Positions 33 to 1,039 are shown, counted from the stretch's first letter. The stretch: 5,345 nt of DNA from Naegleria gruberi (GCA_000004985.1 GG739164.1), one strand, 5' to 3'. Made by a program: numbers and translations. The notes: generated from the letters alone by a model not told the origin.

Positions 33-427
33 TTACCAACAACATCCACTACCTCCTTCACTTTCGTTTGGTTCACTAGTTGAAATATTTACATTATCAG
101 TTGGCTTATTTCTGACTGGTTCAGTACTTTCGAGAAGATTAGTTGTGTTGAGTATTTGATAGACAACTTCCTCAAATGCCTTATCAACATTTTCCTTTGT
201 TTTGGCTGATGTTTCAATATAGACCATATTATTGGATTTGGCAAAGTTTTGAGCGTCTTGGAGTGAAACTTTTCTTTCTTCCTTCAAATCAATCTTGTTT
301 CCAATCAATAATTTTACACATTCCTCAAATGTTGAATATAAATCACATTCCTTAAGCCAATTCTTAATATTATTAAATGTTTCCTCTCTAGTAACATCAT
401 AAACAAGAATTATTCCATGAGCATTTC
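33..427 (-). CDS. RAB18: Rab18-like exon 8 (terminal exon: (R)NAHGIILVYDVTREETFNNIKNWLKECDLYSTFEECVKLLIGNKIDLKEERKVSLQDAQNFAKSNNMVYIETSAKTKENVDKAFEEVVYQIL...GGSGCCW, stop TAA at 33-35)
   Basis: The ORF track reports 33..308, but its initial 'M' is a TTG Leu codon. The reading frame stays open upstream to 427, where the acceptor TTTAG sits (plus 428-429). It contains the G4 NKxD motif (NKID), G5 ETSAK, the Rab YYR.A.G motif and a C-terminal di-cysteine prenylation motif. Confidence 0.9.
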
Positions 428-467
428 CTAAATATTTTGATTAAAATATAAATCTCAAAATACATAC

Positions 468-491
468 TATAATAACTTGATGTAAGAGTTC
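468..491 (-). CDS. RAB18: Rab18-like exon 7, 24-nt micro-exon ((R)TLTSSYY + first base of Arg)
   Basis: Reverse complement is GAACTCTTACATCAAGTTATTATA. The upstream intron carries TTCTAAC (branch-point-like) 12 nt before the acceptor AAG (plus 492-493). The donor is GTATGT (plus 462-467). The result is QERFRTLTSSYYRNAHG. Confidence 0.8.
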
Positions 492-538
492 CTTAAATTT
501 TGTTAGAATTGATCAGTGAATTTTGGAAGCAAACTTAC

Positions 539-553
539 TAAATCTCTCTTGAC
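539..553 (-). CDS. RAB18: Rab18-like exon 6, 15-nt micro-exon ((G)QERF + first base of Arg)
   Basis: Reverse complement is GTCAAGAGAGATTTA. It is flanked by the acceptor AG (plus 554-555) and the donor GTAAGT (plus 533-538). It completes DTAG|QERF exactly. Confidence 0.8.
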
Positions 554-599
554 CTAATTCAATTCTTTAGAGAATTCTGTTTCTTATTTATACACTTAC

Positions 600-615
600 C
601 TGCAGTATCAAATAT
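600..615 (-). CDS. RAB18: Rab18-like exon 5, 16-nt micro-exon (IFDTA + first base of Gly)
   Basis: Reverse complement is ATATTTGATACTGCAG. It is preceded by AG (plus 616-617), with an in-frame TAA further upstream, and followed by the donor GTAAGT (plus 594-599). The split Gly codon G|GT is completed by exon 6, giving DTAGQERF. Confidence 0.8.
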
Positions 616-660
616 CTTTATCAATTATTTAGAAAAATTCAAATCTATTATTTTACCTAC

Positions 661-706
661 AGTCAATTTTACTTTCTTCCTATTTACATTCATAAATTTA
701 ACCTTG
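661..706 (-). CDS. RAB18: Rab18-like exon 4 ((F)KVKFMNVNRKKVKLT)
   Basis: Reverse complement is C AAG GTT AAA TTT ATG AAT GTA AAT AGG AAG AAA GTA AAA TTG ACT. The acceptor AG is plus 707-708 and the donor is GTAGGT (plus 655-660 acctac). It supplies exactly 15 residues between TIGVDF and IFDTAG, matching the Rab spacing (K.K......K..KL.I.DTAG). Confidence 0.65.
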
Positions 707-770
707 CTATTTATAAAATCGTCATCATCATATTAAATCCAAATTCAATAATTATTCATTAAAAACATAC

Positions 771-841
771 AAATCCACACCAATTGTTGGCGACATTTGT
801 TCTTTAAACTCATCCTCAGTAAATTGTGTAATAATACTACT
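771..841 (-). CDS. RAB18: Rab18-like exon 3 (SSIITQFTEDEFKEQMSPTIGVD + 2 nt of Phe codon)
   Basis: Reverse complement is AGTAGTATTATTACACAATTTACTGAGGATGAGTTTAAAGAACAAATGTCGCCAACAATTGGTGTGGATTT, followed by the donor GTATGT (plus 765-770 acatac). The switch-I TIGVD(F) motif is present, and the phase-2 end is completed to TTC by the first base of exon 4. Confidence 0.8.
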
Positions 842-884
842 CTATCGGAATTAATTATCTTCATCAATCTTTAAAAAAACAAAC

Positions 885-911
885 CTTTCCTGTGGCACTA
901 TCACCAACAAG
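885..911 (-). CDS. RAB18: Rab18-like exon 2, 27-nt micro-exon (LVGDSATGK; P-loop first half)
   Basis: Reverse complement is CTTGTTGGTGATAGTGCCACAGGAAAG. The minus-strand acceptor AG is plus 912-913 (ct), and in-frame TAA TAG stops lie immediately upstream in that frame. The donor GTTTGT follows at plus 879-884 (acaaac). Joining to exon 3 gives GDSATGKSS, the G1/P-loop GxxxxGKS. Confidence 0.75.
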
Positions 912-950
912 CTATTAAATCCCGAACCGAACCAAACCAAAATAATCGAT

Positions 951-968
951 TCATCATCATCATCGTCG
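951..968. repeat. Trinucleotide microsatellite (TCA)4(TCG)2 inside Rab18 intron 1
   Basis: Direct reading: tcatcatcatcatcgtcg. Confidence 0.6.
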
Positions 969-1000
969 TTGCAAATACTCTAATAAATTGGAAAACTCAC

Positions 1001-1039
1001 CACAAGTTTGAAATTATGATCAAAAGCCTTTGAAGTCAT
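1001..1039 (-). CDS. RAB18: Rab18-like exon 1 (MTSKAFDHNFKLV), phase 0 end, donor GTGAGT on minus strand (plus 995-1000 actcac)
   Basis: Reverse complement of 1001-1039 is ATGACTTCAAAGGCTTTTGATCATAATTTCAAACTTGTG. An A-rich context precedes the ATG, with an in-frame stop 7 codons upstream. FKLV joins exon 2 LVGDS to give the Rab N-terminal FKLVLVGDS pattern. Confidence 0.75.

What the first reader, a model, noticed from the sequence alone, without database searches (positions are those of the whole stretch)
33..1039. Rab18 ortholog built from four micro-exons (15, 16, 24, 27 nt) and 40-89-nt introns, invisible to ORF finding
Only the terminal exon appears in the six-frame track. Hand translation of the minus strand recovers seven upstream splice junctions, all GT-AG. 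These splice inside codons so as to rebuild the P-loop GDSATGKS (exons 2+3), TIGVDF (exons 3+4), DTAG|QERF (exons 5+6, split within the Gly codon) and YYR (exons 7+8). Micro-exons this short, sitting back to back, are unusual and are routinely missed by gene predictors. One donor is the non-consensus GTAGGT (intron 4). Intron 6 has a TTCTAAC branch-like element 12 nt from the acceptor.
Basis: seen in the sequence. Interest (0 to 1): 0.5.

Follow-up and report, generated by a model that had tools for sequence, protein, structure and literature searches.

The report
Naegleria Rab18 gene with micro-exons

Summary
Confirmed. On the minus strand of 33-1039, eight exons (39, 27, 71, 46, 16, 15, 24 and 395 nt) joined by seven GT-AG introns (89, 43, 64, 45, 46, 47 and 40 nt) give a 210-aa protein. 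It matches Pfam Ras end to end (E 7e-62) and has all G-box motifs and a C-terminal CC prenylation site. The window is a 5,345-bp scaffold of Naegleria gruberi NEG-M. The public model on this scaffold (XP_002668282.1, 197 aa) skips the 15- and 24-nt exons and so lacks switch II (QERFRTLTSSYYR). A second public model, on a 707-kb scaffold (XP_002681527.1), has those exons but lacks exon 1. The exact 210-aa protein is absent from a 15-billion-protein collection. Six of the seven intron positions, including the GTAGGT-donor intron, recur in N. fowleri and in a third Naegleria. Only the intron that splits the Gly codon of DTAG|QE is specific to N. gruberi. All eight nucleotide differences from N. 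fowleri in the three smallest exons are synonymous. A neighbour-joining tree places the protein with human Rab18 and plant RABC (bootstrap 99.7%). No transcript data could be examined. Verdict: a known gene family and a known kind of annotation error, so a useful correction of low novelty.

The parts
1001..1039 (-). Exon 1 (39 nt coding; ATG at 1039-1037), encodes MTSKAFDHNFKLV
   Evidence: In-frame TAG 21 nt upstream. Same 39-nt exon and phase-0 intron in N. fowleri, Naegleria sp. SRR636569 and Willaertia.
912..1000 (-). Intron 1, 89 nt, GTGAGT...AG, phase 0 after codon 13
   Evidence: Position shared with N. fowleri, Naegleria sp. and Willaertia.
885..911 (-). Exon 2, 27-nt micro-exon, LVGDSATGK (P-loop)
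   Evidence: 27 nt in all four vahlkampfiid genes.
842..884 (-). Intron 2, 43 nt, GTTTGT...AG, phase 0 after codon 22
771..841 (-). Exon 3, 71 nt, SSIITQFTEDEFKEQMSPTIGVD(F), switch I
   Evidence: 71 nt in three Naegleria, 72 nt in Willaertia.
707..770 (-). Intron 3, 64 nt, GTATGT...AG, phase 2 in codon 46
661..706 (-). Exon 4, 46 nt, (F)KVKFMNVNRKKVKLT
   Evidence: 46 nt in three Naegleria.
616..660 (-). Intron 4, 45 nt, donor GTAGGT, TTCTAAA 12 nt before the 3' end, phase 0 after codon 61
   Evidence: Same position in N. fowleri (donor GTACGT) and Naegleria sp. (donor GTAGGT). Retention gives a stop at codon 73.
600..615 (-). Exon 5, 16-nt micro-exon, IFDTA(G)
   Evidence: Present in both public N. 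gruberi models.
554..599 (-). Intron 5, 46 nt, GTAAGT...AG, phase 1 inside Gly67 of DTAGQE; N. gruberi-specific
   Evidence: Absent from N. fowleri and Naegleria sp., which have one 31-nt exon here. Weak similarity to intron 4.
539..553 (-). Exon 6, 15-nt micro-exon, (G)QERF(R); carries the catalytic Gln of switch II
   Evidence: Omitted from XP_002668282.1, present in XP_002681527.1. Its differences from N. fowleri are all synonymous.
492..538 (-). Intron 6, 47 nt, GTAAGT...TTCTAAC...AG, phase 1 in codon 72
   Evidence: Position shared by three Naegleria.
468..491 (-). Exon 7, 24-nt micro-exon, (R)TLTSSYY(R)
   Evidence: Omitted from XP_002668282.1. 24 nt in three Naegleria. Four of 24 nt differ from N. 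fowleri, all synonymous.
428..467 (-). Intron 7, 40 nt, GTATGT...AG, phase 1 in codon 80
33..427 (-). Exon 8, 395 nt including stop TAA (35-33): (R)NAHG...GNKID...ETSAK...GSGCCW
   Evidence: Holds G4 (NKID), G5 (SAK) and the CC prenylation motif. It is one exon in Naegleria sp. and is split by two more introns in N. fowleri.

Best explanation
Window 33-1039 (minus strand) is the Rab18 gene of Naegleria gruberi strain NEG-M. It is a constitutively spliced eight-exon gene encoding a 210-aa, probably prenylated, small GTPase of the Rab18/RABC subfamily. Shown: the exon-intron structure; intact G1-G5 and RabF motifs; conservation of six of the seven intron positions across three Naegleria lineages; purifying selection on the micro-exons; placement in the Rab18 clade; and the fact that both public models are incomplete. 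Inferred: (i) the seven introns sit within the first 238 nt of a 633-nt coding sequence because 3' introns were lost preferentially. N. fowleri still has two introns further downstream, Willaertia keeps only four at the 5' end, and Acrasis keeps two. This is the pattern expected from reverse-transcriptase-mediated intron loss. (ii) Exons of 15-27 nt are tolerated because, with introns of 40-90 nt, splice sites are paired across the intron (intron definition), so exon length is not limiting. (iii) The 16+15-nt pair arose when an N. gruberi-specific intron was inserted at a CAG|GT proto-splice site within a 31-nt exon. (iv) By homology with Rab18 elsewhere, the protein acts as a GTP/GDP switch on ER or lipid-droplet related membranes.
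For: The spliced coding sequence is 633 nt and encodes 210 aa with no internal stop. Pfam Ras matches at E 7.2e-62 over profile positions 1-161 of 162. Database hits are N. gruberi 100% over residues 14-210, N. fowleri 85%, Willaertia 65% and Acrasis 55%, followed by Rab18/RABC1 from plants, alveolates and stramenopiles at 219-226 bits. PDB scores are human Rab18 187 bits, G-domain Ypt1 178 and Rab1A 177. The neighbour-joining tree gives the Rab18 clade 99.7% of 300 bootstraps; its human reference sequences were checked against PDB chains. Intron positions 13/0, 22/0, 45/2, 61/0, 71/1 and 79/1 are shared with N. fowleri and Naegleria sp. SRR636569. Micro-exons 5 to 7 differ from N. fowleri at 8 of 55 nt, all synonymous, whereas the introns differ in length and align no better than shuffled sequence. 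Retaining any intron truncates the protein. XP_002681527.1 threads onto this window using exactly exons 2-8, while XP_002668282.1 needs a 172-nt 'intron' that swallows exons 6 and 7. N. gruberi averages 0.7 introns per gene (PMC5862402, citing the genome paper).
Against: No transcript, EST or RNA-seq data could be examined, so constitutive inclusion of the micro-exons rests on conservation and on the fact that the protein needs them. The Rab18-side taxa in the tree were chosen from hits to the query itself, and the method was neighbour-joining with simple distances. A reverse search of human Rab18 against the full N. gruberi proteome was not possible. Human Rab18 is only 51% identical in the G domain, and Ypt1 is also 51%. 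The function and the splicing mechanism are inferred, not tested. The gene lies on a 5.3-kb scaffold that duplicates a gene on a 707-kb scaffold, so this copy may be an allelic or redundant assembly rather than a separate locus.
Confidence: 0.9

Rival explanations
1. The public 197-aa model on this scaffold (XP_002668282.1) is right. Exon 5 would be spliced directly to exon 8, and the 15- and 24-nt segments would be intronic or only alternatively included.
For: That junction is GT-AG and keeps the frame (15 + 24 = 39 nt), so a 594-nt ORF results.
Against: The product would lack QERFRTLTSSYYR, that is, the catalytic Gln and switch II, which are identical in all seven Rab18 sequences aligned. 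The two segments are conserved in length, phase and protein sequence in N. fowleri and Naegleria sp., with only synonymous changes. The other public N. gruberi model includes them.
Confidence: 0.03
2. The protein belongs to another group I Rab subfamily (Rab1/Ypt1-like), or is a lineage-specific Rab, rather than Rab18.
For: Yeast Ypt1 is nominally the top PDB hit (189 bits against 187 for human Rab18). G-domain identity to Ypt1 (51%) equals that to human Rab18.
Against: The Ypt1 score includes the C-terminal tail; G-domain-only Ypt1 scores 178 bits. Yeast has no Rab18 (PMC3425129). No Rab1 appears among the best 120 database hits, and the named hits that align end to end are Rab18/RABC. Bootstrap support for the clade with human Rab18 is 99.7%. 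Ypt1 needs a gap in the stretch before GNK where Rab18 aligns without one.
Confidence: 0.04
3. This copy is not an independent gene. It would be a redundant (allelic or mis-assembled) small scaffold of the locus on the 707-kb scaffold. This is compatible with the main explanation and concerns only the status of the locus.
For: Two NEG-M accessions encode proteins identical over residues 14-210. The scaffold is only 5,345 bp and contains a 1,048-nt gap.
Against: The DNA of the 707-kb scaffold could not be retrieved, so nucleotide identity and flanking synteny are untested. A recent true duplication would look the same at the protein level.
Confidence: 0.5

Closest known systems
Rab18 (human RAB18, PDB 1x3s) / plant RABC1-RABC2
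   Same: Small GTPase fold by sequence. G1 GDSATGKS, G2 T in PTIGVDF, G3 DTAGQE, G4 NKID and G5 SAK are present. The RabF motifs IGVDF, RFRTLT and LVYDVT are present. The stretch before GNKID aligns without a gap. It forms a clade with these proteins at 99.7% bootstrap.
   Different: There is F in place of the near-invariant W before DTAGQE, and YYRNA in place of YYRGA; both changes are shared with N. fowleri and Willaertia. The C-terminus is -GCCW (two Cys), whereas human Rab18 ends in CSVL. Only 51% identical to human Rab18 in the G domain. None of its intron positions coincides exactly with those of the Selaginella, Vitrella or Chrysochromulina Rab18 genes.
N. fowleri FDP41_011553 (213 aa) and the Willaertia magna and Acrasis kona orthologues
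   Same: 85%, 65% and 55% identity respectively. N. fowleri shares six intron positions and phases, and Willaertia shares two exactly. The 27- and 24-nt micro-exons are identical in size.
   Different: N. fowleri has one 31-nt exon where N. gruberi has 16 + 15 nt, and it has two extra introns downstream. Willaertia has four introns and Acrasis has two, at other positions.
Conserved coding micro-exons that annotation pipelines miss (plants, PMC8831610)
   Same: Exons of 15 nt or less that encode conserved protein motifs, flanked by short exons, are dropped or mis-joined in reference annotations. They can be recovered from protein conservation together with splice phase.
   Different: Here the organism is a heterolobosean amoeba with 40-90-nt introns. 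No RNA-seq was used. The error is an in-frame skip of two neighbouring micro-exons.

Membership tests
Ras-superfamily small GTPase | Full-length match to the Ras family profile, with G1-G5 nucleotide-binding motifs | tested here: met
   Pfam PF00071 E 7.2e-62, 208 bits, profile positions 1-161 of 162. GDSATGKS, T43, DTAGQE, NKID and SAK are read from the translation.
Rab family | Rab-family (RabF) motifs around switch I and II: IGVDF, KLQIW, RFRxxT, YYRGA, LVYDIT (motif set recalled from the Rab classification literature, not checked against a paper here) | tested here: met
   IGVDF, RFRTLT and LVYDVT are present. KLTIF (W to F) and YYRNA (G to N) are variant but aligned. All best hits are Rabs.
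Rab family | C-terminal cysteine motif for geranylgeranylation | tested here: met
   The protein ends in GSGCCW. The same CCW is found in N. fowleri, Naegleria sp. and Willaertia. Actual prenylation was not tested.
Rab18 subfamily | Groups with bona fide Rab18 to the exclusion of other LECA Rab families | tested here: met
   Neighbour-joining on 167 G-domain columns and 28 sequences gives the clade with human Rab18 and plant RABC 99.7% of 300 bootstraps. Limits: a simple method, and the Rab18-side taxa were taken from the query's own hits.
Rab18 subfamily | Reciprocal best hit with Rab18 | tested here: inconclusive
   Forward direction met: the best human solved structure is Rab18, and the named hits that align end to end outside Heterolobosea are Rab18/RABC. 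The reverse direction (Rab18 against the whole N. gruberi proteome) cannot be run with these tools. The only N. gruberi proteins among the best 120 hits are the two models of this same gene.
Rab18 subfamily | Rab18 cell biology: ER or lipid-droplet association and activation by a Rab3GAP-type exchange factor | not testable with these tools
   The role on the ER is described for other organisms (PMC3425129). Nothing here addresses Naegleria.
Spliceosomal (U2-type) introns | GT-AG boundaries, an extended GTAAGT-like 5' site, a branch-like element near the 3' end, and removal needed to keep the frame | tested here: met
   Seven of seven introns are GT-AG with donors GTGAGT, GTTTGT, GTATGT, GTAGGT, GTAAGT, GTAAGT and GTATGT. 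CTAAA, CTAAC or TTAAT lies 9-13 nt from the 3' end in introns 2, 4, 5, 6 and 7. Each retained intron gives a premature stop. Splicing itself was not observed.

The most novel reading that the evidence does not exclude
Intron 5, which splits the Gly codon of the invariant DTAGQE motif and creates the 16 + 15-nt exon pair, is a recent N. gruberi-lineage intron gain at a CAG|GT proto-splice site. Its source is still recognisable: it would be a copy of the neighbouring intron 4, by intron transposition or local duplication. That would be a rare case of a datable intron gain with an identifiable donor in a free-living excavate.
Probability: 0.1. Interest if true: 0.45.

Novelty: already known. Interest (0 to 1): 0.18.

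Why it matters
There are three practical consequences. First, the reference protein for this scaffold (XP_002668282.1, UniProt D2W5W3) lacks switch II and the catalytic glutamine. It would therefore look like a degenerate or pseudo-GTPase in comparative Rab surveys. The sister model lacks the N-terminus. The complete 210-aa sequence given here appears to be absent from public protein collections. Second, it shows that in-frame skipping of neighbouring micro-exons occurs in the N. gruberi annotation, so other intron-dense genes in that genome may carry the same error. Third, the gene has ten times the genome's average number of introns, all packed into the first 238 nt of coding sequence, with stepwise differences among N. 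gruberi, N. fowleri, a third Naegleria, Willaertia and Acrasis. That makes it a small, clean series for studying intron loss and gain in Heterolobosea. None of this changes what is known about Rab18 or about splicing.

Tried and rejected
(1) Transcript-level support. I looked up the exact 210-aa protein in the 15-billion-protein collection, hoping for an RNA-seq-derived contig, and it is not there.

(2) Fetching the DNA of the two public N. gruberi models with the look-up of encoding contigs. Neither is on record, so the 707-kb copy could not be compared at nucleotide level.

(3) Ancient origin of the introns. I mapped the introns of the Rab18 genes of Selaginella, Vitrella, Chrysochromulina and Acrasis. 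None coincides exactly with a Naegleria position, although four lineages have introns within about 9 nt of each other around DTAGQE. Retention of LECA introns is therefore not supported by this small sample.

(4) Origin of intron 5 from flanking exon or intron sequence by tandem duplication. The downstream context shows nothing (z -0.9). The upstream match is only the 3' half of intron 4, and the shared motif is not found elsewhere in the window. This is too weak to claim.

(5) Rab1/Ypt1 identity, rejected.

(6) Literature. The two Rab-evolution papers that mention Naegleria and Rab18 confirm that Rab18 is a rarely lost LECA Rab, but their main text does not name this accession.

(7) No structure prediction was run, because sequence evidence already settles the fold.

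Full report
**What is there.**

| Feature | Window coordinates (minus strand) | Length (nt) |
|---|---|---|
| Exon 1 (ATG at 1039) | 1039-1001 | 39 |
| Exon 2 | 911-885 | 27 |
| Exon 3 | 841-771 | 71 |
| Exon 4 | 706-661 | 46 |
| Exon 5 | 615-600 | 16 |
| Exon 6 | 553-539 | 15 |
| Exon 7 | 491-468 | 24 |
| Exon 8 (stop TAA at 35-33) | 427-33 | 395 |

- The seven introns are 89, 43, 64, 45, 46, 47 and 40 nt, and all are GT-AG.
- The donors are GTGAGT, GTTTGT, GTATGT, GTAGGT, GTAAGT, GTAAGT and GTATGT.
- The coding sequence is 633 nt and encodes 210 aa.
- An in-frame TAG lies 21 nt upstream of the ATG.
- ORF listing shows only the distal part of the last exon (33-308).
- The unspliced frame stops at codon 20, and retaining any single intron gives a premature stop.
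- CTAAA, CTAAC or TTAAT elements lie 9-13 nt from the 3' end of introns 2, 4, 5, 6 and 7.

**Whose gene it is.** The spliced protein matches Pfam Ras over profile positions 1-161 of 162 (E 7.2e-62). The protein database search identifies the source as Naegleria gruberi. One hit, P0002, sits on a contig of exactly 5,345 bp, which is the window's length. The exact look-up gives the accessions.

| Public model | Scaffold | Length | Defect |
|---|---|---|---|
| P0002 = XP_002668282.1 / EFC35538.1 / UniProt D2W5W3 | this 5,345-bp scaffold | 197 aa | lacks QERFRTLTSSYYR |
| P0001 = XP_002681527.1 / EFC48783.1, marked 'partial' | 707,703-bp scaffold of the same NEG-M assembly | 197 aa | begins at exon 2 |

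- P0002 threads onto the window only by treating 599-428 as one 172-nt intron. That span swallows the 15- and 24-nt exons.
- P0001 threads onto the window using exactly exons 2-8.
- Skipping exons 6 and 7 removes 39 nt and keeps the frame. That explains how a predictor could drop them without penalty.
- The complete 210-aa sequence is not in the 15-billion-protein collection.

**Comparative test of the gene model.** I fetched the orthologous loci and searched for the GT-AG structures that encode each protein. Each annotated protein admitted exactly one structure. The third Naegleria gene (Logan SRR636569, L007) was assembled by hand from the contig.

| Species | Exon sizes (nt) |
|---|---|
| N. 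gruberi | 39, 27, 71, 46, 16, 15, 24, 395 |
| N. fowleri | 39, 27, 71, 46, 31, 24, 110, 36, 258 |
| Naegleria sp. (Logan SRR636569) | 39, 27, 71, 46, 31, 24, 401 |
| Willaertia magna | 39, 27, 72, 57, 465 |
| Acrasis kona | 70, 143, 429 |

- Six of the seven N. gruberi intron positions and phases are shared by all three Naegleria: 13/0, 22/0, 45/2, 61/0, 71/1 and 79/1 (codons before the intron / phase).
- Intron 4 is among the shared ones, and its donor is again GTAGGT in the third species.
- Only intron 5 is peculiar to N. gruberi. It lies in phase 1 inside Gly67 of DTAG|QE, and it is what turns a 31-nt exon into the 16 + 15-nt pair.
- The exons are 74-87% identical in nucleotide sequence to N. 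fowleri.
- In micro-exons 5 to 7, all 8 differences among 55 nt are synonymous.
- The introns differ in length and align no better than shuffled sequence.
- Together these points show coding constraint on the micro-exons, independent of any annotation of N. gruberi itself.

**Rab18 or not.**
- Outside Heterolobosea, the named hits that align end to end are Rab18 or plant RABC, at 219-226 bits. No Rab1 appears in the best 120. A few higher-scoring longer rows are fused or mis-joined models.
- Among solved structures, human Rab18 scores 187 bits over the G domain, against 178 for G-domain Ypt1 and 177 for Rab1A. The 189 bits of full-length Ypt1 include its tail, and yeast has no Rab18 (PMC3425129).
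For twelve of them, PDB chains of the expected name matched at about 2.1-2.2 bits per residue. Rab2A did not appear among the 60 rows shown, so it remains unchecked.
- A neighbour-joining tree on 167 G-domain columns puts the four heterolobosean proteins, the named Rab18/RABC proteins and human Rab18 in one clade. That clade appears in 99.7% of 300 bootstraps and excludes Rab1, Ypt1, 35, 8, 10, 3, 2, 4, 14, 11, 5, 6 and 7.
- The limits are the simple tree method, the choice of Rab18-side taxa from the query's own hits, and the lack of a reverse search against the N. gruberi proteome.
- The protein departs from the usual Rab pattern in three ways. It has F instead of W before DTAGQE, YYRNA instead of YYRGA, and a -CCW end. 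All three are shared with N. fowleri and Willaertia.

**How it most likely came about and works (inference).**
- N. gruberi averages 0.7 introns per gene (PMC5862402). This gene has seven, all within the first 238 nt of coding sequence.
- The series N. fowleri (two further 3' introns), N. gruberi and Naegleria sp. (none), Willaertia (four, all 5') and Acrasis (two) fits preferential loss of 3' introns. That is the pattern expected from recombination with reverse-transcribed mRNA.
- None of the Naegleria positions coincides exactly with introns of the Selaginella, Vitrella or Chrysochromulina Rab18 genes. An ancient origin is therefore not supported by this small sample.
- With introns of only 40-90 nt, splice sites are presumably paired across introns. 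Very short exons would then not be a handicap.
- Intron 5 sits at a CAG|GT proto-splice site. Its nearest relative among the gene's introns is its neighbour, intron 4: 34 of 46 matches with gaps, z = 3.0, reached by 7 of 1000 shuffles, the best of 10 pairs tested.
- That similarity is a hint of origin by copying. It is equally explained by a shared branch-site region in AT-rich sequence.

**Comparison with what is known, and verdict.**
- Rab18 is one of the Rabs assigned to the last eukaryotic common ancestor and is rarely lost (PMC3425129), so finding it in Naegleria is expected.
- Conserved coding micro-exons, and their frequent loss from annotations, are well documented (PMC8831610).
- The gene is already annotated twice, though imperfectly.
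- The finding is therefore real and correctly interpreted. It is useful as an annotation fix but of low novelty.
- No transcript evidence could be examined. That remains the one missing direct test.

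Noticed in passing
window 1189-2259 (-): A 356-aa single-exon ORF ends 149 nt upstream of the Rab18 ATG on the same strand. It has a Gln/Pro-rich N-terminus and a match to the Pfam apolipoprotein L domain (PF05461, E 6.1e-8, 32.9 bits against a cut-off of 25.9). It has no sequence match in the PDB. An ApoL-like protein in a heterolobosean amoeba may deserve its own look.
   Followed up: partly
window 2770-3817: A run of 1,048 N marks an assembly gap in a scaffold of only 5,345 bp. 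The large 'ORFs' of X residues are artefacts of this gap.
   Followed up: yes
window 3960-4493 (+): A 177-aa Asn-rich ORF has no Pfam match. Whether it is a gene is untested.
   Followed up: partly
window 554-599 and 616-660 (-): The N. gruberi-specific intron 5 resembles the neighbouring intron 4. Their 3' halves are GAATTTTTCTAAATAATTGA and GAA-TTCTCTAAAGAATTGA. The gapped global alignment has 34 of 46 matches, z = 3.0, reached by 7 of 1000 shuffles, the best of 10 pairs. This may be a trace of origin by copying, or just a shared branch-site context.
   Followed up: partly
window 600-615 and 428-491 (-); protein residues 62-63 and 78-82: The Rab18 proteins of Naegleria and Willaertia have F instead of the near-invariant W in KLxIWDTAGQE, and N instead of G in YYRGA. 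Acrasis and all other aligned Rab18s keep W and G. These residues lie in or next to the switch and interswitch surface that effectors read.
   Followed up: no
L001 3832-3898 and 3935-4013; L002 3236-3279: N. fowleri Rab18 has two introns (116/0 and 128/0) that are absent from N. gruberi and from Naegleria sp. SRR636569. Intron 3 of Willaertia lies exactly 1 nt downstream of the Naegleria position (46/0 against 45/2). Introns in Willaertia, Selaginella, N. gruberi and Acrasis cluster within about 9 nt around DTAGQE without coinciding.
   Followed up: partly
whole window versus the 707,703-bp NEG-M scaffold: The same Rab18 protein (identical over residues 14-210) is annotated on two scaffolds of one assembly, with a different model error on each. 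This small scaffold is probably an allelic or redundant copy.
   Followed up: partly
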